64,000 nt of DNA from the human T2T-CHM13v2.0 reference genome, Homo sapiens: the NCBI RefSeq assembly GCF_009914755.1, contig NC_060931.1; one strand, written 5' to 3'. Shown here piece by piece: positions 1-62,839 of the stretch. The number at the start of each line of letters is the position of its first letter. The first letter of the stretch is position 1. The translations under genes were made by a program, and so were the position numbers. The notes under the pieces were generated by a model. That model had not been told where the DNA came from. It did not search any database and worked only from the letters and a program-made list of their open reading frames with translations.

Positions 1-1805
1 TTCTGCCTTTCTGCAAAATTACTGAATCAAAGTTTGAAGTAGTGCGTTCTTTAATGGATTTTATTTATAAAATCATCTTTACTGTAATCTGTGTTCCTTG
101 ACTTTTCATCAACATTGAAAACATTTTCTCTTAATTTTTTCTCATTAACATAATGAACCATATTCATTTCTTGGTCAGTTGTGAGCCATTCTTTTATTCC
201 ACTTGGATTGTTCATTTTAAGTGAAGGAGGCGGAGCCTTTAATGTATACGCAGACATTTTTTAAATAATAACAGGATATTTCTTAGTCTAGAGCTTGTAA
301 ATTCTTTAATATAAGGAGTTTTATAGGATTAAACAGTAGTTTCTCTGCGTTTCAGTTAACTATTTAACTTTATCAGAGTTTCAGGCATATCCAAAACACT
401 GAAAGCACCTGCATAGTGAATCAATGAAAAAAGAAAAGTTTTCCTCATTTTGCATTTTGAACTCTGAATAATATTTCTATCTACACAGCAGCCCAGAAAA
501 CAATAAAAGTATCACTTCATATAACATTGCATCGTTCCTGGATTCTCTACAGTTGTTTAGTTCTCCTCAAGTAAGCATATGCTTCTGAGACATTCTTTTA
601 CTTCAGGTAAATATAAGCAAAACAAAGAAAAATCATTTTGTCTATTTCTGCATCAGTTCTATAAGGAGCAAGTAAATTCTTTTATTTTCGTTTAGGTTGG
701 ATGTTGTCATATAAGGATAGATGGTAGTGTTCAACGTGTTCAAGATGGGTAGTAGGAATTCAATGGCCATGAGGTGTCATGGATCAAGGTCAGGTTTAGT
801 GAATCAGGTACTCTTCAGTAACAGGTGGTTCATACAAAGCATTGAAGCTTAAAGTTGCTGTGAGTTCAGCAAGCAGGAGGGTTGAGAAGACAGGCAGATG
901 GTTTAAAACTAAAGGTCAATAAGTGGGCAAGACTAGTTAAATGAGGCAGATACTCCCCAAAGATGGAATTCCAGAAAGGTGCTTGAAAAGGACTGAATTC
1001 TTAAAGCCTACTGCTGTTAGTATGTAGAGTTCTTGAGGAAACAAGCAGTTTGGCATAACTTAATCTACTAAGAAACTATAAGAAGGTGAAGGAAGTTGGA
1101 ACATCTTACTGGAAAAAGAATGAGGGAGTGAAGAGGGAATCTTGTGAATTCAAAACTTGCAGAAAAGCTATTCTGTTTCCTTTTTGTTTAGGTTCTCATG
1201 CACTAGCAGCTGCTAGAATAGATATTGGAAGGCAGGGCCAAAATAGGTCAGTTGTTCAGTTTTGCAAGATTATTGAGGATATAGAGAAATTAATTTGTGA
1301 AAACTCTGAAATCATCTGCAGCTCCATGTTTTTGTTTGAACTGAATAACTTAGGACTTTGAGAAGTCAAAGCCGTCAGAAAGTAACATGAAGTCCATTCA
1401 GCTGAATAAATGTCATATTTTGCTATTAGCATAGAAAAGAATCTTTAAAACTTCTTTCCAAAAAGCACTCAGTATTGACCCATATGTTCCAGTATAGTTG
1501 TGAACCATGTACAACTGATGTTTGACTTATTTGACTCAACATGAAAGGAATTTAACCAGCTGCCCTTGCTGAATCTTGTCTCCTGAATATGGTAAATGGT
1601 TTTTGTTTTTAATCTTAATACCTTAGATTTCTGCAGACCCCAGTTTTCTCTTTTAGAGTTAACTGATAATTATTGGATAGTATCTATAATATACCTGGCT
1701 GTTCTGTTCTGTACTGTGCTCTAGTATTAGTTTAAATGGTAGACTTTTCTCTTAAAGTAACTTTAATAGTTTAATAGTTAAAGTTACTTGAAGGTATGTT
1801 TTAGA

Positions 1806-2005
1806 TCAGGGACTGGCACTATGGCCTCCTGCTTTTGGTAAATAAAGTTTTATTGGAACACATCCATGCCGATTCATATACATGATGTCTATGGCTGCTT
1901 TGGCTTACGACAGCAGAGCTGAATGGTTGCAACAGAGTCATATGGCCCGCAAACCGAAAACATTTACCATTTGACTCTAACAAAAGCTTGTTGATCACCA
2001 TTCTG
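1806..2005. mobile_element. MER58A-like hAT-Charlie DNA transposon
   Basis: gtaaataaagttttattggaacac...tatggctgcttt...ggcccgcaaaccgaaaacatttac signature. Confidence 0.8.
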
Positions 2006-2009
2006 GTTT

Positions 2010-2205
2010 AGTTATTCTAAACCAAGTGTGGTCCTTGGAGCAGCAATTCAGCATCACCTCAGCATCACGTCGTATTGTTAGAAATATAAATTCTTGGACC
2101 CACCTACTGAGTCAGAAATTCTGGATATGGGCCCCAGCAATCCATGTTTTTAGAAACCTTCCAGGTGATTCTGATACACATTAAAAGTTTGAGAAACCCT
2201 CTTCT
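2010..2205. mobile_element. MER5A-like hAT-Charlie MITE
   Basis: cagcatcacct...ctactgagtcagaaattctg...ccaggtgattctgatacacattaaaagtttgagaa. Confidence 0.8.
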
Positions 2206-2254
2206 AGATCAGTGTTTCCCAAATGTTTGTCACACTTATTGCCTTTATTATTAT

Positions 2255-2551
2255 TTATTTTTATTTTTTATTTTTTGGAGACAGAGTCTCTGTCTCCCAG
2301 GCGTGAAATGCAGTGGCCTGATCTTGGCTCACTGCAACCTCCGCCTCTCGAGTTCAGGCGATTACCCTAGCTTCCCGAGTGGCTGAGATGACAGGCATGC
2401 ACTGTCATGCCCTGCTAATTTTTGTATTTTTAGTAGAGATGAGGTTTTGCCATGTTGGCCAGGCTGGTCTCAAACTCCTGACCTCAAGTGATCTACCTGC
2501 CTTGGCCTCCCAAAGTGCTGGTATTACAGGCGTGAACCACCATGCCTGGCC
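2255..2551 (-). mobile_element. AluS element
   Basis: Full dimer with TSD ttgcctttattattattta on both sides. Confidence 0.95.
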
Positions 2552-3098
2552 TTGCCTTTATTATTATTTACTGTTTTCTGTTTATTTAATATTTTCCTTT
2601 ATGTCAACTCACTTTCTAAAAATTTTAAGTTAATTTTAAAATGAAAGTTTATACCACCATAAAAATAAATACAATGAAAACAAAATGGTGTATTATGTAA
2701 CTAGACTCTTGTCACTTAGGGTTCCTGTGCTAAAAATTAGAAGTTGTTAAATTTATTAAACAAGTACTGTTGCAAAATGGGAACTTTTTTTCTTGACTTA
2801 ATTGTGATTAATAATTTCCTTACTGAGTGGTATTTAAAATGTCTTGTTGGCAAAATCATGTAACACCTAAAGTCATCTTTTGTGCAAATCTCATACTTTG
2901 GAAATTACTGTTCCAGGGAGTATTCATGTGAAAGGAAAGCTGTTTGAACTATATATATACCTAAGCCTGTAAGCAGAAATGACTGGACAGAAATACAAGC
3001 CTGTGAGACAGAGAGATCTAGGAGATCCCTAGAGAGGTCCATCAAGACCTCCAGGATGAAATTACCTCATTTAGCTCAATTTCTCACCTCTCCGTTAG

Positions 3099-3302
3099 TG
3101 CTTTGGTCCACGGGGGTCAGTGTTTCTGCAGGATTTCACCAACTGGTTCCACAGTGGGAATGTGAAGAGGTACCTGGCTGTGGGAAAAGCTGCTTATCAA
3201 AGAGAGGCCTGATAGAAATGCTAGGGAAAGTGGCTGTGAGCCTGCATTATGGACGGGAGCAGAGCGGCAGGGCATGTTGCTAGGACTAAGCAGTCGATTC
3301 AC
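3099..3302 (+). other. LUC7L2: Candidate poison cassette exon in intron 1 (204 nt) with in-frame TAG at 3281-3283
   Basis: Acceptor tttctcacctctccgttag|TG (alternative tgtttctgcag|G, start 3132), donor CAC|gtgagt. A GC/CpG-rich block in an AT-rich intron; the exon-1 frame equals ORF-track frame 3056..3283. Confidence 0.6.
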
Positions 3303-3714
3303 GTGAGTCTGGACACCATGTATAAATATTTTGAAAACTTCCTGTTACAATTTAATTTACTCCATTGTGTTAGAGGGAGTGCTTCCCTGCACATGGTGTT
3401 CTGTATATTTATTGGTTGATGTGCTTTAGGGTATAGTAATTATTTATAGCAATAGATTGATACCCAGGTTGCAGAGTTGCTTTAGTTATATCTTTATTTC
3501 CTTTTCTTAGAGATTATAGACATAATTTGCTTCTGTCATCTTTTGACCAAAAATCTAATGGGAATGAAGAATTACACTTGAATGTTTATTTTTAAGTAAT
3601 AAGTTCTGTGATAGTGATTATAGGTGTCTGCATTTAAAAAAATGTTTTAAAAAGTACAGAGGTCAAACAAGCATCTGTATGATTGAACAAATGTTATTTC
3701 GTATATTTCTGTCA

Positions 3715-4134
<420 letters not shown>

Positions 4135-4406
4135 TCACTGTGAGGCAGTATTTCTGCTGTGTTGTTTAGTTTTAAGGCTCACGTCTCCTTCATGGTGATC
4201 TGTTTTTCATTTTAACTTCTTCCTTTATCATTGGGTTGTCTATCACCTCTGTCCCTTGATATTTTCATCTTTTTTTTTCTTTTTTATTTCTTTTCCTTTG
4301 GATTTGGGGAGGCTCTAGTTGGCTTCTGTAGCTATCACCAGCTGATGAGAACTTGTCTTTTTTAATAGATAAATCAGCCAGTTACTTTTTCTTTGATTAT
4401 TTTCAG

Positions 4407-4531
4407 CTATTGCTTGATAGCCAAAGATAGCTTTCGTTACTTCTAATTTTGTATATAGAAAGTTCTGGATGATAGAAGGCACCGGCTATCCAGAGTGCAA
4501 TTGTTACTATGTCAGAATTACAGCTCTGCAA
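4407..4531 (+). other. LUC7L2: Candidate poison cassette exon in intron 1 (125 nt from 4407, or 73 nt from 4459)
   Basis: Acceptors tttttctttgattattttcag|CT and ttctaattttgtatatag|AA; donor CAA|gtaagtat (perfect +1..+8 match to U1). In-frame TGA at 4415-4417 or 4470-4472. Confidence 0.45.
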
Positions 4532-5736
4532 GTAAGTATCAAAATATAAAATTTAGCAGGCTGTAACTTTTTATGCCATATATCTTAAAATAAATTCTAT
4601 ATAACCTATTTTAGGACTTAATGTTAAAGTAACTATTCAGACTTTTCTGATGTCTCTTGTAAATTTAAGAAGAGGAATAGGCTGATAGATTTCCTAAAGC
4701 ACATACCCCCCAAAACATGATAGCATTGGTCCCTGCCAGCTACCAAGACCCTTTGCTTGTATTAATATAATGAGAGAAGATAGGTGCAGGGCATGGAATA
4801 GAGCCTTGGAATGGAGATTCTTTAGTATTCCTGTTCTCACATTTTCATCATCACCATTCTGGTTAGCTTCAAAAGATCCTACAAGGTTTTTCTTCTACTA
4901 ACAAGGCTGTTCCCCAGTTTCATTCTTATAATCTTGTGATATGGATTTTCACAGACAAGTGGGCCAGATTTTTAACATTTTAAAAACATTAATCTTTGAT
5001 CATATCCAGCAAGAATGAACTTGTTCTGGAGATTTCTTCTACAGTGGGCATCACATTTTAAAAATGTTTGGCTTGTCATGGGGATTATGGTGGGGGGTGA
5101 TACTGGTACCTATTTCTGATTATAAACTTATGGGACCATATGAACCAGAAGATTAAGAAGGATAGCTTTTCTGAGCTGTATAGCACCCTTGTGTTTACAT
5201 TTTCTGGAGGAAAGGAAAGCTGCTTTGTTTTATTAGGAACGACTTGATGTCACATTTGGAAGGCAGACTGTCATAATTGTTTTTTCCCGTTGCCATCTTT
5301 GGCATAGTACTCTTTCTTCCCTTTCCTTATGTAATAAATATATGCCTGGAAAGTTTTACATAGATCAAGACATATTAAATGTTTTCAAAGCATCTGTATT
5401 ATTATGTTAAGACATGGTGATGAGTCCTTTTGTAAAATGAACCCTATACTTTGGATGGTTTAAATATACAGTGGGTTAAACTGAGTGTATATATTAACAG
5501 GGGAACATGTAGCAAGGGAGTAATGTTTTTTTAAAAGGTTAATTACAAAAGGATTTGTATAGGTGGATTTTAAGCTGAATTCTAAAGGAACAACAAAGGT
5601 AGGTGGGAGAAGTTGGTAGAGTGGGTGAGAAAGTTTGAGGAAGATGTAAAAATGATCAGATTGGCTCCTTAGTATAAGAGTTACTGTGCAGCAGTAATCA
5701 TCGCTTTTACTTTGATTCCACATGAAGACACAAGGG

Positions 5737-6032
<296 letters not shown>

Positions 6033-6675
6033 TGACACAAGGTTTTACTTGTGCACTGCTTTAGATCTCTTCCTGCCCTGGACTAGACTAGAAATTGGCC
6101 ATGGATCTTTATACAGTTCCCACATTATTACGTGAACTCAGCAGCTTATGTTGGAAGAAATGGAGGGAAAAAGAGGGAGGAACGTTTCTCTGCATTTAGG
6201 GATTCAAGGGGTCAGGAAAACAAGCTTTAAGCTTTTGGTTGTACACCTCTCTAGCTCTAGCTTTCCTTTCACTGAGGGGTTATGGATCTTATTTCAGAGG
6301 GAAGGAAACTGTCCTGTCCCAAGCCCACTGTGACACGTGACCCTTAACTAGTATACCTGTGGGGAGGGCTTCAGTTGCCACCCTAGAGAATGTGGGAGGG
6401 CTTCCCTTCCCCTGCCCCCATTTGTAGACATGGGAGTGTCTCCATTGCTTTGTATGCTGTTGCATTCTCCTCCCTCCTTGTTTTCCCTAAGCTAAGCTCT
6501 AAGCTAATTCTGTACAAAATACTGATTGTTTTTGTAAATTGCTTGCCATGAATGCCTGATAATGTACAGTGAAATAGGATTCTGCATACCATTAAATATG
6601 TCAAATATTACAAACTTTAAGGTTCTTTTGAAATTACAATACTAAACTCAGTTCACTTTTGCTTAGCCTTCACAG

Positions 6676-6743
6676 TTGTTGATCACATAGCATGGTCATC
6701 CACTCACAGCTTAAAAAAATACAGGGAGCATCGGAGAGAATGG
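6676..6743 (+). other. LUC7L2: Alternative cassette exon in intron 1 (68 nt): frameshifting, with an ATG (6692) giving the N-terminus MVIHSQLKKIQGASERM(G)-DTTRQ
   Basis: Acceptor cttttgcttagccttcacag|TTG, donor TGG|gtaaag. The ATG frame joins exon 2 in phase, G-runs lie downstream, and I recall this as an annotated isoform. Confidence 0.8.
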
Positions 6744-6815
6744 GTAAAGTAAAATTTTGATGTTTTTAAAATAGCACCTAAATCTATGAAAGTTGATTTG
6801 GTTTCTTGTTTGTAT

Positions 6816-6854
6816 GGGAGGGAGAGGGTGGGTAGTACTGGGGGGAGGGGGCGG
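6816..6854 (+). promoter_or_regulatory. G-run / G-quadruplex motif (candidate hnRNP F/H intronic splicing enhancer)
   Basis: GGGAGGGAGAGGGTGGG...GGGGGGAGGGGG starting 73 nt after the weak donor at 6743. Confidence 0.55.
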
Positions 6855-7927
6855 ATATTGGGAAGATAGCATGCAAAGTATAAAATCATGTCAGATACTA
6901 CCTAGGCTAAGGTTGTAATGTTACTAATAAAATTTAAGTGTTAATATAAGTTTCAGAAAAGGCAGGACCATAGAATGGCAGTGTTGGGAATGACAGTGGG
7001 CTTATTTTTTCCCTCCTGATATATGGAAGGGGATTTTGAGAATAGCAGTATTTGAGTAAAATTTAGAGAGGAGGCCTCTTTTTAAAGTGACCTGTCTATA
7101 TTCCCTGGTGGAACTGACTGCCTTAGGCTCTGATACATTGGTGACAGACCTGGAGATGAATAATATGCATCCTCATTTTTATTGTATACTTGTGACTCAG
7201 GTGTTCTCAAAGGTTATAATTCATGAAACTCATGAAGGTGTTGAACAAAAGAGGGAGGAAAGAGAGTTGTTGCTTGGTAGAGAATTTGGTAGAAATAGGA
7301 ATTAATAGAAAAGTTGATGTTTCTATTAAAATGAAAAACACCTCACTTGCTAGAGTTCTAAATCAAGTTTCTAATTCTAAAAACTTGGCTGTGTAGTTAA
7401 GTACAAGGCCTGAATAACTATTGTAGAGGTTATAGGACAGAGAGATCTCCATGTTTTTATAGGTGGGATATTTTTTGTTGTTGACAGAAGTAACTTCGCC
7501 TGATCTCTGTTCCATTATTTTAATTTTTTTTTTTTACTTTATACACTAAAAATTTGGATTAAAAAATGAAAAATGTAAGAAATCAAATGTTACTCAAAAA
7601 GTATTGTTTTGCTCCCAACTCTGCAATTCTACATGAAGCCATTTGCCAAAGCCAGATATGGTTTACTTACTGTTCCCCCAAACCTTCTTGCTCTTATAAG
7701 CTTTGTCAAAGCTATTACTCCAGGTTGTAGTGCTTTTTTTTCTACTTTACTTTGATCTAAGTCCTGTCTTTCCTTCAAATTTTGGCTACTTATTGCATGA
7801 AGCTTTTTCCAATATTTCCATTCTTGGTGGTAATTTTAGTCTAAGAATTCCTGAAGTACTACCTAATTGAAACACACATTTGATACTTGGATCATGTTAT
7901 CTTGTATTATAACTTATTACTCCATTA

Positions 7928-8221
<294 letters not shown>

Positions 8222-9680
8222 TCATTGTGACAGGATACTTTTTCCCCCATAATAGGTTATTTTTATATGACTTTATGCCCACAAAACCCAAAGATAAAAC
8301 ACATTAAATTGAAAATAATTTCTTGTATTATAAGGTGATTTGGTTCCTATTTGCAGTTCTTTCTTCTTTTTATAAAATAGGTGCTGTTTTACCTAGTTTC
8401 TTATGAAAAACATGGTTTGGGCCAGATATCTTGACAGAAACCAAATTACCAGCATTTTTCTTTTAAAAATTATTGTTGGTTTAGCTGAATTGTACTGCCA
8501 TGGAATAAGCCCAAATAAATTTGTTAAGTACTGCATGGTTATGCAGCCAGATTGTTTTAAAATGTAAACCTTAAAGTCCCCAAGGCAGAACTTTAAAAAT
8601 ATCAATAAACAGTCAGTTGCTATTCTCTCTCAAGGTATTTCTGTATCTCAAATTATTAAGCGTTTTATTATTTCATTGTTTTAAAGATTTCTATAATGGC
8701 TGCTATTTGATAGCTGTATTTGTTGAGTTTGCTACGGTTATCAAATATTTATGGAGCACCCATTCATTTGCGGTGAGGAGTTATTTTAAAATGTTTTTTG
8801 GCATTTATAGAAACAGATTCTGATCTTAAAAGCTCACCAGGGAAAATATGTACAACTATTATGTATCCATAAAAATTTTAAAAAACACAAAAAAGCTCAC
8901 CAGGGATACTGCCTGGTTTGCTATATTCCTATTAGGAATTTGTTCATATTTTAACTGATAGCTGTGTCTTCAGGGCACAATAACTTAATATTTGAATATA
9001 AGTTGTTAAGCACAAATCAGTTACTCTGCCTGATGAAATGTTTGATTAGTAAAACTCCATGAATACTGATTTTATTCTAAGGCCTGAGCCATTAGTTTAA
9101 CAAAGCACTGAAATGATTCTGCTGTTGCCATTACCAAAACATTTAGATACTTTTAGCAGGAAGACTTATTAGATACATAAGGGATTTTTTTGTTTTGTTT
9201 TGTTTTTGTTTCAACTTTAAAATTTTATCATTTTAAAATTGCTTAATATAATTAGGGTACAGATTTAAAATGAAATTTTTTTCTTAAATGGTAGGAAGCA
9301 AAAAGCTTCTAATTAAATAGCATTGACATTCTGATATGAGTTTATCATAGCACCATTCTAACATGAGCTTGAGGTCCTCACCAAAGTCTTGATGAAACAT
9401 ACTTTTTAAAGAAATAATTTTTTAAAACCCCACTTGGCTCAAAGACATTGTCCAGAGCTCCAGCTTTGGACTTTTACCTGTAGTCAGTCATACAATTATC
9501 TGGGGTTATACTTGTTAAGTCAGTATTTAAAAAAATGAAACACCCTGATTTTGTTCACTTTTGTTTTTATATAAAAGAATCTTTACAGTCAACATGTACT
9601 TCTAGATGCTGTATTGAAATTGCTGGCAGAGTTTATTCTATACAAAATGAACAATCTGGCCCCTTGTTTTATTTGTAAAG

Positions 9681-9751
9681 GTTCAATGTATCTATGCCTG
9701 CCTACCTCAATCTGCAAGGGAGTGTCAGAAAGGCCCCGCATTCGCCAAGCC
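9681..9751 (+). other. LUC7L2: Alternative cassette exon in LUC7L2 intron 1 (71 nt): frameshifting poison exon, also carrying an ATG (9694) that gives the alternative N-terminus MPAYLNLQGSVRKAPHSPS(R)-DTTRQ
   Basis: Acceptor ccttgttttatttgtaaag|GTT, donor GCC|gtgagt. The ATG frame joins exon 2 in phase. CpG-retaining, repeat-free context. I recall this N-terminus as an annotated LUC7L2 isoform. Confidence 0.85.
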
Positions 9752-10910
9752 GTGAGTTATCGCTAACTTTTCAGATGTGTTAATGAATGTGGAACAAAAG
9801 CAGTTGTGTTTAAAAGGAAAAAGGACCATCAAAATAACTTTTATTATAGTAGCAGGCGTAAACACTAAACTGAATATTCCAAATTGTGTCAAAAATAACC
9901 TACTAGAGACGAGCTTCTAGAAAACCTATTGTTGAACTGCTCTGAAGCTATCATTTTAACTATAAATTACTGTTGTTAAAATTTTATATACCCTGGTTGC
10001 AAATTAGAATGTTTTAAAAATATCTTTAACCACGTTAAAACAATTTGAACAAAATCTTACCCCATCTAAAAATGATAGTGTTTAGTTGAATTTAAGTTAA
10101 GCTCTTTAGTATATGACCATATGAAGGGGTAAAGTTTTAATCTTTTTTGTTATTTACATGTGAAAATACAGAAACTAAGTGATTGAATCACATCCTACAC
10201 GAAAGTTTTTGGAGTGCTCCAGGCATATCATGTGAAATACAGAGGTATTTATATCTCTTTTGGCACCAATAGTTCTTGCTTCAGTAATTCACCAGTAGGT
10301 TTTCATTCATCGATAATATATCAGTTTAAGGCTAAAATAAAACACCTACATTTCTTAGGGCTTATCATTCTATATAGAAAGAGGAAACATCCTAATGAGT
10401 TTTTTCTTTTGTTTTTCCAAAGAGATTCTAAGCAAAAAAATTTTAACTAACATCTATATTTTGTTATTGGAGCTAGTTACCTTTCTTTTTCTTAGATTCT
10501 TTAACGTTTTGAGTAGATAGCCATATTTGATAAGCAGGTTGGATGCTTCTGTTGCTTAGGAGGTAGGTGTATTGTGTTATATGAAGACAGAATGAATTTA
10601 AATATACCCAGTTTGGCAGTATGAAAAAGCTCAGACTACATAAAACTTGGAGGTATGGAACCTTTGGACGCATTAAAGTTAACGTTTCATTAGGCAATGT
10701 GCCTTTGTTTGACTGGTGTGTAAGTCCTTCTTCCAGGTTTGTACGCTCTTAAACGCGTTATTCTACCCTCTCTAACTCCTCCCAGCAGCAAAAGGGAGAC
10801 ACTTCAGCTGGAACAAAATAGTGGAAGAAATGGCGTCTGGGGTTCAGTGGGGATTCGCAGTGTGTATGCAATGTTTGCAAGATTATTTTTTATGTTTTTC
10901 AATTACTGTA

Positions 10911-10916
10911 AATAAA
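10911..10916 (+). terminator. Candidate intronic poly(A) signal in intron 1
   Basis: TGTA directly adjoining AATAAA, preceded by a U-rich tract, about 430 nt upstream of exon 2. Confidence 0.45.
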
Positions 10917-10964
10917 AATATATCAATGCTTAGTGTCAAGAAGGGAACATTGTATACCAGTATA

Positions 10965-11085
10965 AACTCTCTTAGTGGGTCTGCAAGTTGCTTAACCTCT
11001 CGGGGCCTCAGTTTTCTCATCTGCAATATGAAGGAGTTGGACTCGATAATCTTTAAAGTCCATTCCTGCTCTAAAATCCTATGCT
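10965..11085 (+). mobile_element. MIR
   Basis: caagttgcttaacctctc...cctcagttttctcatctgcaatatgaaggagttggact MIR core. Confidence 0.8.
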
Positions 11086-11341
11086 TTTCTGAAGTACTCT
11101 ATTTAACAGAATGCATTGCTTTCTCACTTTGACTATTTGAATTATGTATGCAGTACACTTACTGCAACTGCATGTTGTCTAAAATAGTTTTTCTATAGGA
11201 TGTATATAAAAACTAATCCCTCTTGAGCTGATTTATAATGTGTGTATATAGCCACACATAAAAAGCTAGTAATAGTAGGGCTCTCAGAAAATACTTTCCA
11301 GTTGTCTAACCTTGAATGTTATTAACTCTTCTATATTACAG

Positions 11342-11436
11342 GAGATACAACTCGTCAACGAATCAAATTCAGTGATGACAGAGTATGCAAGAGTCACCTT
11401 CTCAACTGTTGTCCTCATGATGTCCTTTCTGGAACT
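11342..11436 (+). CDS. LUC7L2: LUC7L2 exon 2 (95 nt, phase 1->0): (G)DTTRQRIKFSDDRVCKSHLLNCCPHDVLSGT, N-half of zinc finger 1
   Basis: Acceptor ctcttctatattacag|GA, donor ACT|gtatgt. The manual translation matches the LUC7-family N-terminal CCCH zinc finger. Confidence 0.98.
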
Positions 11437-12466
11437 GTATGTATTTACTAAATGTATTGTTAGATTACTGATATGCTGCAGTAATGAACTACTTGATAAA
11501 GTCTTAATTCTGTGTCAAAAGAATTGACTTGTGAGGGGAGATTTGCATCCTTTATTGTTTGTTTATTCAGGATGATTACTTAAATCTTCAGTAATGGGTT
11601 TCCTCACAAAAGTGGTTGATACGTTTTGTTTTATAATTTTTTCCATTCTTCAGAGCAGTTTTTTAAAAGCATGTTTTATTTGGAATACAGAAGTAGTTAT
11701 ATAGCATTTGTACTTTTAGTTCAGAAATAAAATAATTTATTTTTAAAGTTCCTTTTACTGTTAAACAGAGTAGACTTTTATCTAGTACGGTATACATTTT
11801 TGTTAAGATTTGTACACATTTGTGGAATCAGTGGGGAAATATATTAGTAAATACTTATATCCACACAGCTTAATTTGGGAGTATTGTCACTTAAAATATT
11901 GCTCCTGCTAATAATGTAAAGCTCAATTTAGATTCTATGTCTGCAGAGATGTTGATCTTAGAGTATCATCGTTTTAATTTGGAAGATAAACTGCATGATG
12001 ATGGACCTGTTGGAATGTGGAACAGAGAATTTGATTCTCTGAATTTTGGATTTGGTTGAAATGATTACAAGTAGCTTCCCTTCATAGTTGCATCTGATGC
12101 TGGTGGGGAGCTAGTAGGGGCTAAACCTCGAGCTGGCTTTAGTTCTCATTTGCCAGAAATGACTGAAATGAAGAAAGATTTCTGACTTGCCTTTTCAGAA
12201 GCAATGAGTTTCTCAGCCAAATGAGTGGTTTCTTCTTTGATAGGAAGAGTTAAAATTAAGGACATGCCCCAAAGAGAGATGTATCAAGGCATATGCAACA
12301 GGAAACACCTTTGACTTTTTCCAGGAGGAAAGACAGTTGAAACTATATTATGTTAACGGGGAAAAAAGAGCCTAAGTTTATTTTAAAGTATAATACTACA
12401 AAGCAAGAAATCCAGTTTCTGAGCACAGGAATTTGGAAGGACTGTGACAGATAATAAATATAATAA

Positions 12467-60798: not shown

Positions 60799-62285
<1,487 letters not shown>

Positions 62286-62839
62286 TACATCACGATTTTA
62301 TTATATCTTGACTGTTGATAATTAAAATTTCCTGGGATATAAATAAGGCAATATGAAGTTGCCCTTTCTCAGTATTTTTCTTTGTACTGCCTGTTATTTG
62401 AAAAAGCATTTTCTCCCTCAGGGGAGTTAGGAAAGGTTAGAGAGCTGAGAGAACAGGGTTTCCCTGGGCAGAGGCCGAGTAGGGGAGAGCAGGCAGGGGT
62501 CTGTCAGCAGAGTAGTACTGGGGCCATGCATGAGTGGGGCCTTGGGGGCTCTAGGGTCAGCAGGCAGCACACTGGCATGTTCTCCAGGTAGCAGCAGAAA
62601 CATTAGGGTGTTAGAGGTTTGGGGTCTGCAGGCATATCTGGGGATCAGAACAAGCTAATGGCCAGCATTGGCTGAAGCAAGGCTTTGAGACTCACAGAAT
62701 TGGGCTGTCAGTCAAGCAGGGATCTAAGAGATGGGGCCAGCCAAGCAGAAGTCAAAGGCTGGTGCCAGCATCAAAATCTGCTCTGATGCTCCTTTGGGAG
62801 ACTGATTCTTCAAGTCTCAAATGCTGTTCACACCTGTCT

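What the first reader, a model, noticed from the sequence alone, without database searches (positions are those of the whole stretch)
489..11436. Battery of poison exons in LUC7L2 intron 1, mostly with 'right-handed' donors: a candidate multi-sensor autoregulatory circuit
Seen: five exon-like units lie before exon 2, with donors CAA|gtaagc (570), CAC|gtgagt (3302), CAA|gtaagt (4531), TGG|gtaaag (6743) and GCC|gtgagt (9751). Each produces a premature stop when inserted at the phase-1 junction between exons 1 and 2. Four of the five lack G at -1 but have +5G. Established: LUC7L2/LUC7L are reported to promote 'right-handed' 5' splice sites (weak exonic, strong intronic match) while LUC7L3 promotes 'left-handed' ones, and LUC7 paralogues cross-regulate through NMD-coupled splicing. 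Inference: the intron is a graded sensor array in which excess LUC7L2/LUC7L activates several right-handed poison donors, while the one -1G/+5A donor (6743) could read LUC7L3 or hnRNP F/H. Individual exons are probably annotated; the array-level design is the claim.
Basis: partly seen in the sequence, partly recalled or inferred. Interest (0 to 1): 0.85.

Follow-up and report, generated by a model that had tools for sequence, protein, structure and literature searches.

The report
One known LUC7L2 autoregulatory exon, not an array
This stretch of LUC7L2 intron 1 holds one already published self-regulating exon and one other annotated alternative exon, while the other three "poison exons" look like the ordinary exon look-alikes that any long intron contains.

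Summary

Only one unit is backed by evidence. Exon 9681-9751 (GCC|GTGAGT) is the "AE2" exon of Kenny et al. 2025. It is 58 of 71 bases identical to the LUC7L PTC exon on chr16, with the same donor 9-mer. That paper already shows it is promoted by LUC7L2/LUC7L, repressed by LUC7L3, and dependent on its right-handed donor.

By the published Balance score, only this donor is right-handed (+3). The other four score 0, +1, +1 and 0.

Exon 6667-6743 is RefSeq-annotated. It has a weak balanced donor and the densest G-run cluster of the gene body just downstream.

Units 489-570, 3099-3302 and 4407-4531 are not in RefSeq and have no LUC7L counterpart. Their number and quality are about what shuffles, the antisense strand and base composition give. 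A premature stop is generic: 41 of 46 comparable pseudoexons give one.

Verdict: the real part is already known, and the sensor-array idea is unsupported. RNA-seq and cross-species conservation could not be examined here.

The parts
489..570 (+). Unannotated exon-like unit, 82 nt, donor CAA|GTAAGC. Most likely an ordinary pseudoexon.
   Evidence: Sites confirmed. Donor matches 5 of 7 consensus positions, Balance 0, polypyrimidine fraction 0.58. 91 of 660 GT sites pair with U1 at least as well. The frameshift gives a stop in exon 2. Single copy, with no LUC7L counterpart. Not in RefSeq (hub table). A stronger left-leaning donor, CAG|GTAAAT, lies 36 nt downstream at 606.
3099..3302 (+). Unannotated exon-like unit, 204 nt, donor CAC|GTGAGT. 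A good-scoring pseudoexon candidate.
   Evidence: Sites confirmed. Donor 6 of 7, Balance +1, polypyrimidine fraction 0.79. In-frame stop at 3281. One of 3 pairs passing the strictest thresholds. Single copy, with no LUC7L counterpart. Not in RefSeq.
4407..4531 (+). Unannotated exon-like unit, 125 nt, donor CAA|GTAAGT. The best-looking of the three unannotated candidates.
   Evidence: Sites confirmed. Donor 6 of 7, Balance +1, polypyrimidine fraction 0.84. In-frame stop at 4415. Single copy, with no LUC7L counterpart. Not in RefSeq. Its -1A is the non-consensus base that LUC7L3-promoted sites favour, per Kenny et al..
6667..6743 (+). RefSeq-annotated alternative exon, 77 nt, weak balanced donor TGG|GTAAAG. 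It carries an ATG at 6692 in frame with exon 2.
   Evidence: Annotated in the hub table. Donor 3 of 7, Balance 0. Read from exon 1 it frameshifts to a stop in exon 3. ATG 6692 (and ATG 6740) restore the exon-2 frame. No LUC7L counterpart.
6816..6862 (+). Cluster of seven G-runs 73-119 nt downstream of donor 6743. Candidate G-run intronic splicing enhancer (hnRNP F/H type).
   Evidence: Seven runs of three or more G in one 100-nt window. This ties for the densest in the 64-kb window; the other window (62461-62560) overlaps the annotated enhancer 62063-62699. The function is inferred from recalled general knowledge of G-run enhancers and was not tested.
9632..9680 (+). Intronic block upstream of AE2 that is conserved with LUC7L. 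It includes an unusual AAG|G acceptor.
   Evidence: 39 of 51 alignment columns are identical to the LUC7L locus, against about 45% in the flanks. The acceptor is AAG in both paralogues.
9681..9751 (+). AE2, the published LUC7L2 negative-regulatory alternative second exon. 71 nt, strongly right-handed donor GCC|GTGAGT, ATG at 9694 in frame with exon 2.
   Evidence: RefSeq exon (hub table). 58 of 71 bases (81.7%) are identical to chr16 LUC7L, and the donor 9-mer is identical. This matches the paper's '82% identical' and 'identical 5'SS, Balance +3'. Balance +3. Read from exon 1 it frameshifts to a stop in exon 3, and ATG 9694 restores the frame.
11342..11436 (+). Constitutive exon 2, entered in phase 1.
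   Evidence: Hub table. Only the frame with one leading base is open and continues through exons 3 and 4.
857..865 (+).
10717..10725 (+).

Best explanation
The interval is the last 11.3 kb of the 15.7-kb intron 1 of human LUC7L2.

It contains one proven autoregulatory cassette exon, AE2 (9681-9751). Its strongly right-handed donor GCC|GTGAGT is stabilised by LUC7L2 or LUC7L on U1 snRNP and disfavoured by LUC7L3. Inclusion ends the exon-1 reading frame prematurely, in exon 3, so nonsense-mediated decay is predicted. At best it allows initiation at ATG 9694, giving a protein without the N-terminal helix. Excess LUC7L2/LUC7L therefore lowers the output of functional LUC7L2. This part is shown in print.

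A second annotated alternative exon (6667-6743) has the same coding consequence through ATG 6692. Its donor is weak and balanced. It probably depends on the downstream G-run cluster rather than on LUC7 handedness; this is inference.

The three remaining units (489-570, 3099-3302, 4407-4531) are most likely ordinary pseudoexons, or at most low-level cryptic exons, of the kind expected in a long AT-rich intron. The 'mostly right-handed battery' is an effect of how the donors were picked, not a designed sensor array.
For: - Identity of AE2: the region 9632-9757 hits chr16 LUC7L. The exon is 58 of 71 bases identical and the donor 9-mer is identical. This matches Kenny et al. 2025, which reports 82% identity, an identical 5'SS, Balance +3, minigene regulation by LUC7L, LUC7L2 and LUC7L3, and loss of regulation after a right-to-left-handed swap (passages).
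- A LUC7L2 poison exon was assayed by RT-PCR with and without SMG1i in the ZNF207 preprint (passages). Which exon was assayed is not stated in the passages read.
- Handedness: Balance is 0, +1, +1, 0 and +3 for donors 570, 3302, 4531, 6743 and 9751 (using the definition read).
- Chance level of donor hexamers: 5 sense GTRAGT sites against about 4.95 expected.
- Chance level of donors: 28 donors with at least 5 of 7 matches, against 31 antisense and 28.4 +/- 5 in 100 shuffles. All 28 have a possible acceptor with polypyrimidine fraction at least 0.55 within 40-300 nt.
- U1 pairing energies of the five donors are matched or beaten by 28-91 of 660 GT sites, and sense and antisense counts are similar.
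- Among the 28 strongest pseudo-donors, Balance is -2 (5 sites), -1 (10), 0 (10) and +1 (3). The intron is therefore not enriched in right-handed sites.
- A premature stop is generic: 41 of 46 comparable pseudoexons give one.
- Paralogue comparison: apart from Alu elements, the only LUC7L2/LUC7L matches are exon 1, the AE2 block and exon 2. The other four units hit only themselves in the genome.
Against: - At the strictest thresholds (donor at least 6 of 7, polypyrimidine fraction at least 0.75) the intron has 8 donors and 3 donor-acceptor pairs. Shuffles give 4.2 +/- 1.9 and 0.66 +/- 0.85, and reach the observed values in 27 and 21 of 500.
- Donors with at least 6 of 7 matches are about three times denser here (8 in 11.3 kb) than in introns 2-9 (11 in 45.2 kb), and the antisense strand has 2.
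- Units 3099-3302 and 4407-4531 are two of those three top pairs, so they could be used at a low level.
- RefSeq is not exhaustive. GENCODE, long-read catalogues and RNA-seq after NMD inhibition were not available.
- Cross-species conservation could not be computed.
- My splice-site scores are crude (consensus counts, U1 duplex energy, pyrimidine fraction), not MaxEnt or SpliceAI.
Confidence: 0.75

Rival explanations
1. One reading: intron 1 is a graded multi-sensor array. Several right-handed poison donors (570, 3302, 4531, 9751) are switched on by excess LUC7L2/LUC7L, and 6743 reads LUC7L3 or hnRNP F/H.
For: - AE2 works this way.
- All units give a premature stop.
- There is nominal enrichment of the strongest donor and donor-acceptor pairs in this intron.
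- A G-run cluster lies downstream of 6743.
- LUC7L2 intron 1 is about 8 times longer than LUC7L intron 1 (15.7 kb against about 1.9 kb), which leaves room for added exons.
Against: - Only 1 of 5 donors is right-handed by the published score.
- -1A, present at 570 and 4531, is the base favoured by LUC7L3-promoted sites when -1 is not G.
- Kenny et al. report that a right-handed donor is necessary but not sufficient for activation by LUC7L2.
- Three units are unannotated in RefSeq.
- None of the other four units has a paralogous counterpart.
- Site counts are at chance level.
- Two Balance +3 sites (859, 10719) were not even part of the proposed array.
- No paper found by the searches describes more than one such exon.
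Confidence: 0.06
2. Some of the unannotated units (most likely 4407-4531 and/or 3099-3302) are genuine low-abundance cryptic NMD exons of LUC7L2. They would be generic splicing noise or tissue-specific events, not LUC7-handedness sensors.
For: They have the best combined donor and acceptor scores in the intron. They carry immediate in-frame stops, so transcripts including them would be removed by nonsense-mediated decay and escape curated annotation.
Against: They are not annotated in RefSeq (hub table). No expression evidence was seen in any paper read. No paralogue conservation was found. The statistical excess is marginal.
Confidence: 0.14
3. The modest excess of strong donor-like sites in this first intron reflects U1 snRNP binding sites with a non-exon role. 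Examples are suppression of premature cleavage and polyadenylation in a long promoter-proximal intron, or decoy sites that modulate intron 1 splicing. They would not be poison exons.
For: There are 8 sense against 2 antisense donors with at least 6 of 7 matches, and a density three times that of introns 2-9. Six of the 8 are left-leaning (Balance -1), which does not fit a LUC7L2 sensor. The general phenomenon (U1-PAS axis, telescripting) is recalled knowledge and was not checked in a call.
Against: The excess is nominal (27 of 500 shuffles) and disappears at the 5-of-7 threshold. Polyadenylation-signal distribution was not analysed.
Confidence: 0.05

Closest known systems
LUC7L2 AE2 / LUC7L PTC exon autoregulatory and cross-regulatory circuit (Kenny et al., Nat Commun 2025, PMC11842720; passages read)
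   Same: Exon 9681-9751 is this exon: the same donor 9-mer, 81.7% identity to the LUC7L exon, Balance +3, and an ATG that replaces the N-terminal helix coding sequence.
   Different: The finding extends the circuit to four more units. None of them is right-handed by the paper's score, and three are unannotated. The paper describes a single exon.
Poison (PTC) cassette exons of SR proteins and other splicing factors, coupled to nonsense-mediated decay (Lareau et al. 2007 and Leclair et al. 2020 appear in reference lists seen; their content is recalled)
   Same: A cassette exon in a splicing-factor gene introduces a premature stop when included and is promoted by the factor itself or its paralogue.
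   Different: The classic cases are single, highly conserved exons. Here only AE2 shows deep conservation, and only between paralogues. AE2 and 6667-6743 also carry an in-frame ATG, so RefSeq treats them as encoding alternative N-termini.
Intronic pseudoexons: splice-site-flanked intronic segments that are not spliced (general knowledge, recalled)
   Same: Units 489-570, 3099-3302 and 4407-4531 have plausible splice sites, no annotation, no paralogue conservation, and chance-level abundance.
   Different: Two of them score at the top of the intron's candidates, so low-level use cannot be excluded.
G-run intronic splicing enhancers bound by hnRNP F/H downstream of weak 5' splice sites (general knowledge, recalled)
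   Same: Seven G-runs lie 73-119 nt downstream of the weak donor at 6743.
   Different: Binding and function were not tested, and the distance is at the long end for such enhancers.

Membership tests
Right-handed 5' splice sites (Kenny et al. 2025) | [quoted passage not shown] The paper's right-handed tail is >= +2. | tested here: not met
   Balance is 0 (570), +1 (3302), +1 (4531), 0 (6743) and +3 (9751), with the definition read. The criterion is met for 9751 only, so 1 of 5 as a set.
Right-handed 5' splice sites (Kenny et al. 2025) | Positive LUC7 Score (ratio of the right-handed to the left-handed position weight matrix). | not testable with these tools
   The matrices are in the supplementary or source data, which were closed. 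The paper gives +7.6 for the AE2 donor. It also says -1A is favoured by LUC7L3-promoted sites and -1U by LUC7L2-promoted sites.
Autoregulatory poison / negative-regulatory cassette exon | The exon is actually spliced into transcripts (annotation or junction reads). | tested here: inconclusive
   The hub RefSeq table lists 6667-6743 and 9681-9751 only. The other three units are absent. No RNA-seq, GENCODE or long-read data were available.
Autoregulatory poison / negative-regulatory cassette exon | Inclusion gives a premature stop upstream of later exon junctions. | tested here: met
   All 5 of 5 units do so. The feature is not discriminating, because 41 of 46 comparable pseudoexons do the same.
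Autoregulatory poison / negative-regulatory cassette exon | Inclusion is promoted by the gene's own protein or its paralogue. | not testable with these tools
   Published for AE2 only, by minigene with LUC7L, LUC7L2 and LUC7L3 overexpression and a donor swap. No data were found for the other four units.
Autoregulatory poison / negative-regulatory cassette exon | The included isoform is stabilised when nonsense-mediated decay is inhibited. | not testable with these tools
   The ZNF207 preprint reports RT-PCR of a LUC7L2 event with and without SMG1i and says most such events act through NMD. The exon is not identified in the passages read.
Autoregulatory poison / negative-regulatory cassette exon | Sequence conservation of the exon and its flanks. 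| tested here: inconclusive
   Conservation between paralogues is met for AE2 (58 of 71 in the exon, 39 of 51 upstream). It is not met for the other four. Cross-species conservation is not testable because no vertebrate genomes other than this one are held.

The most novel reading that the evidence does not exclude
LUC7L2, unlike LUC7L with its compact intron 1 of about 1.9 kb and a single PTC exon, has gained additional NMD-coupled cassette exons in its expanded 15.7-kb intron 1. The candidates are 6667-6743 and at least one of 4407-4531 or 3099-3302. These exons would respond to different inputs: LUC7 dose through AE2, and G-run/hnRNP F/H activity through 6743. LUC7L2 output would then integrate several splicing-factor signals rather than only its own level.
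Probability: 0.1. Interest if true: 0.5.

Novelty: already known. Interest (0 to 1): 0.2.

Why it matters
LUC7L2 is a haploinsufficient myeloid-neoplasm gene on 7q, so how its dose is buffered matters. The buffering exon and its handedness logic are already in print, so the finding adds no new mechanism. This check contributes four things:
- The published AE2 is placed on exact coordinates in this assembly.
- The other proposed exons are shown not to share its right-handed signature or its paralogue conservation.
- The 'battery' is shown to be what chance and the way of picking donors produce.
- Exon 6667-6743 and its G-run cluster are flagged as the only other element worth a targeted experiment.

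Tried and rejected
- **Own-genome searches.** I searched with each unit plus flanks. Only AE2 has a second copy (chr16 LUC7L). The other four hit only themselves, so no repeat origin or paralogue was found at that sensitivity; old diverged repeats such as MIR or L2 would be missed.
- **Paralogue comparison.** blastn of window 1-12000 and of the 25 kb upstream against 20 kb of the LUC7L locus gave no non-Alu match apart from exon 1, the AE2 block and exon 2. A tblastx attempt timed out and was replaced by blastn.
- **Rfam.** A scan of 1-11700 at gathering thresholds gave 0 matches.
- **Literature.** Searches for a multi-exon design used these term sets: 'LUC7L2' with 'poison exon'; with 'LUC7L', 'nonsense-mediated' and 'autoregulat'; with 'cryptic exon'; with 'alternative exon 2', 'N-terminal helix', 'isoform 2' and 'AE2'; with 'unproductive splicing'; and with 'ultraconserved'. 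None described more than the one exon.
- **Daniels et al. 2021.** I read the outline and passages. They say only that LUC7L and LUC7L3 rise on LUC7L2 knockdown and that LUC7L is alternatively spliced.
- **Jourdain et al. 2021.** The paper is not held.
- **Protein-database search not run.** I considered looking for the alternative N-termini in other species. The isoforms differ from the canonical protein by about 20 residues and would be hidden inside 90%-identity clusters. A spliced protein also cannot be given as a window reference.
- **Upstream promoter.** I considered that the alternative exons might belong to transcripts starting at the upstream FMC1 promoter, because the RefSeq gene span starts at -24247. 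The hub table does not resolve this.

Full report
**Observation**

The window is human chr7 (T2T-CHM13), and positions 1-11341 are the 3' part of LUC7L2 intron 1.

| Unit | Length | Donor |
|---|---|---|
| 489-570 | 82 nt | CAA\|gtaagc |
| 3099-3302 | 204 nt | CAC\|gtgagt |
| 4407-4531 | 125 nt | CAA\|gtaagt |
| 6667-6743 | 77 nt | TGG\|gtaaag |
| 9681-9751 | 71 nt | GCC\|gtgagt |

Exon 2 (11342-11436) is open only when one base precedes it, which is phase 1.

I located the canonical exon 1 outside the window by listing every ATG followed by 61 bases and then GT. Its coding part runs from -4458 to -4398 and ends in G, with donor ACG|GTAAGT. The same stretch is the only non-repeat match to LUC7L upstream of the window. 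Intron 1 is therefore 15.7 kb, and the window holds 72% of it.

Inserted after exon 1, every unit gives a premature stop:
- The stop lies inside the unit at 3281 (unit 3099-3302) and at 4415 (unit 4407-4531).
- It lies in exon 2 for 489-570.
- It lies in exon 3 for 6667-6743 and 9681-9751.

Four of the five donors lack -1G and have +5G, as stated.

**What the one solid element is**

A search of the window's own genome with 9600-9830 found a second copy on chr16, in LUC7L, at 84% identity. In a pairwise alignment:
- The 71-nt exon is 58 of 71 bases identical (81.7%).
- The donor 9-mer GCC|GTGAGT is identical.
- 39 of 51 columns just upstream are identical.
- The flanks fall to about 45%.

This matches what Kenny et al. 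[quoted passage not shown] They state 82% identity to the LUC7L PTC exon, an identical 5'SS, MaxEnt 8.7, Balance +3 and LUC7 Score +7.6. So 9681-9751 is AE2.

That paper already shows the following by minigene:
- LUC7L and LUC7L2 overexpression promote AE2 inclusion.
- LUC7L3 represses it.
- Swapping the right-handed donor for a left-handed one of similar strength abolishes regulation by LUC7L2.

Two other papers fit:
- The PRPF40A paper says mouse Luc7l2 also encodes splicing-mediated non-productive isoforms.

**Handedness of the other donors**

[quoted passage not shown] The five donors score 0, +1, +1, 0 and +3. Only AE2 falls in the right-handed tail (>= +2).

The paper adds that, when -1 is not G, LUC7L2-promoted sites favour -1U and LUC7L3-promoted sites favour -1A. 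The donors at 570 and 4531 have -1A. It also states that a right-handed donor is necessary but not sufficient for activation by LUC7L/LUC7L2.

**Is the battery more than chance?**

- **GTRAGT count.** It occurs 38 times in the window on both strands, against 55.9 +/- 8.2 in shuffles. On the sense strand of 1-11341 there are 5 sites (860, 3303, 4532, 9752, 10720), against about 4.95 expected from the same shuffles.
- **The -1 base.** None of these 5 sites has -1G. Picking donors by the intronic hexamer therefore yields 'no -1G, +5G' by itself.
- **Donors with at least 5 of 7 consensus matches.** There are 28 on the sense strand, 31 on the antisense strand and 28.4 +/- 5 in 100 shuffles. All 28 have an AG with polypyrimidine fraction at least 0.55 within 40-300 nt upstream.
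- **Balance of those 28 donors.** It is -2 (5 sites), -1 (10), 0 (10) and +1 (3), so the intron's pseudo-donors lean left or are balanced.
- **U1 duplex energy.** Between 28 and 91 of the 660 GT sites pair at least as well as each of the five donors, and sense and antisense counts are similar.
- **Premature stops.** Of 46 pseudoexons built from donors at 5 of 7 or better and acceptors at 0.65 or better, 41 give a premature stop. The 5 that stay open share one Alu-internal donor.

**Results against my reading**

At the strictest of four threshold pairs (donor at least 6 of 7, polypyrimidine fraction at least 0.75), the intron has 8 donors and 3 donor-acceptor pairs. Shuffles give 4.2 +/- 1.9 and 0.66 +/- 0.85, and reach the observed values in 27 and 21 of 500. 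This is uncorrected for the four thresholds.

The three pairs are 3099-3302, 4407-4531 and one whose donor (3787) lies in an Alu. Donors at 6 of 7 or better are also about three times denser here (8 in 11.3 kb) than in introns 2-9 (11 in 45.2 kb), with 2 on the antisense strand. Six of the 8 have Balance -1, so the excess does not fit a LUC7L2 sensor.

Units 3099-3302 and 4407-4531 remain credible cryptic-exon candidates. Nothing here shows that they are used.

**Paralogue and copy-number evidence**

Units 489-570, 3099-3302, 4407-4531 and 6667-6743 (each with flanks) hit only themselves in the genome at E <= 10. blastn of the intron against 20 kb of the LUC7L locus gives only exon 1, the AE2 block and exon 2, apart from Alu matches.

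LUC7L's intron 1 is only about 1.9 kb: exon 1 is matched at 8805-8903, the PTC exon at 9722-9848 and exon 2 from 10832 in my sense-oriented copy. Only AE2 dates back to the LUC7L/LUC7L2 duplication. Cross-species conservation could not be tested with the tools at hand.

**The second annotated exon**

Exon 6667-6743 is in RefSeq (hub table). Its donor is weak (3 of 7 matches, +5A, +6G) and has Balance 0.

Seven G-runs lie at 6816-6862, which is 73-119 nt downstream. This ties for the densest 100-nt G-run window in the 64 kb; the other (62461-62560) overlaps the annotated enhancer at 62063-62699.

Both annotated exons carry an ATG in the frame of exon 2, at 6692 and 9694. Inclusion therefore ends the exon-1 frame prematurely but leaves open an ORF for a protein lacking the first 20 residues. 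This is the N-terminal helix that, per Kenny et al., contacts SmE. In LUC7L, that helix is needed for the U1/5'SS/compound binding assayed in the CP3 preprint.

Because RefSeq tends to give coding status to exons that offer such an ORF, I draw no inference from the coincidence. Neither ATG of AE2 is present in the LUC7L copy.

**Mechanism and verdict**

- **Shown in print.** AE2 is a LUC7L2/LUC7L-activated, LUC7L3-repressed negative-regulatory exon that acts through its right-handed donor.
- **Inferred.** 6667-6743 is a second alternative exon with the same coding consequence but a different, probably G-run-dependent, control.
- **Most likely.** The three unannotated units are ordinary pseudoexons or rare cryptic exons.

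The graded sensor array is not supported. I put it at about 0.06. I put at about 0.1 a weaker form, in which at least one further regulated NMD exon has been gained in the expanded intron.

The literature searches found no description of more than the one exon. Supplementary tables that I could not open may hold junction data. Rfam found nothing in 1-11700.

Noticed in passing
outside the window, -4458..-4398 (G000 C7; loci L007-L009): The canonical coding exon 1 of LUC7L2 lies only 4.4 kb upstream of the window, with donor ACG|GTAAGT. Intron 1 is therefore 15.7 kb, against about 1.9 kb for the paralogous intron of LUC7L. The RefSeq gene span that starts at -24247 must come from other transcripts sharing the FMC1 start.
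   Followed up: partly
window 857-865 and 10717-10725: Two donor-like sites with the maximal right-handed Balance (+3) and -1U: GCT|GTGAGT at 859 and TGT|GTAAGT at 10719. By the published criteria they are better LUC7L2-type donors than four of the five that were listed.
   Followed up: partly
window 9676-9685 and the LUC7L locus (L010/L011): The AE2 acceptor is a non-YAG AAG|G, and it is conserved in the LUC7L copy. Both ATGs of AE2 (9686, 9694) are absent from the LUC7L exon, and the LUC7L copy aligns with a one-base gap. This fits LUC7L being annotated as a pure PTC exon and LUC7L2 as an alternative N-terminus.
   Followed up: partly
window 6816-6862: A cluster of seven G-runs downstream of the weak donor at 6743. 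It ties for the densest such cluster in the 64-kb window.
   Followed up: partly
whole window, both strands: The hexamer GTRAGT is depleted overall: 38 observed against 55.9 +/- 8.2 in dinucleotide shuffles, and 99 of 100 shuffles have at least 38. The sense strand of intron 1 sits at the shuffle expectation, while the rest of the window is below it.
   Followed up: no
window 1-11341 versus introns 2-9: Donor-like sites with at least 6 of 7 consensus matches are about three times denser in the intron 1 part (8 in 11.3 kb) than in introns 2-9 (11 in 45.2 kb), with 2 on the antisense strand. Most lean left (Balance -1). This may be a first-intron U1-site effect.
   Followed up: partly
window about 2244-2600, 3720-4040, 5733-6055, 7930-8087: Four Alu-type repeats, seen as many matches to the Alu-rich LUC7L locus. 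None overlaps any of the five units. The donor-like site at 5970 inside one of them gives the only pseudoexons that stay in frame and open.
   Followed up: no
window 10680-10870: A stretch about 500-650 nt upstream of exon 2 that retains several CpGs, seen by eye. It contains the Balance +3 site at 10719. It has no LUC7L match, and its conservation across species is unknown.
   Followed up: no
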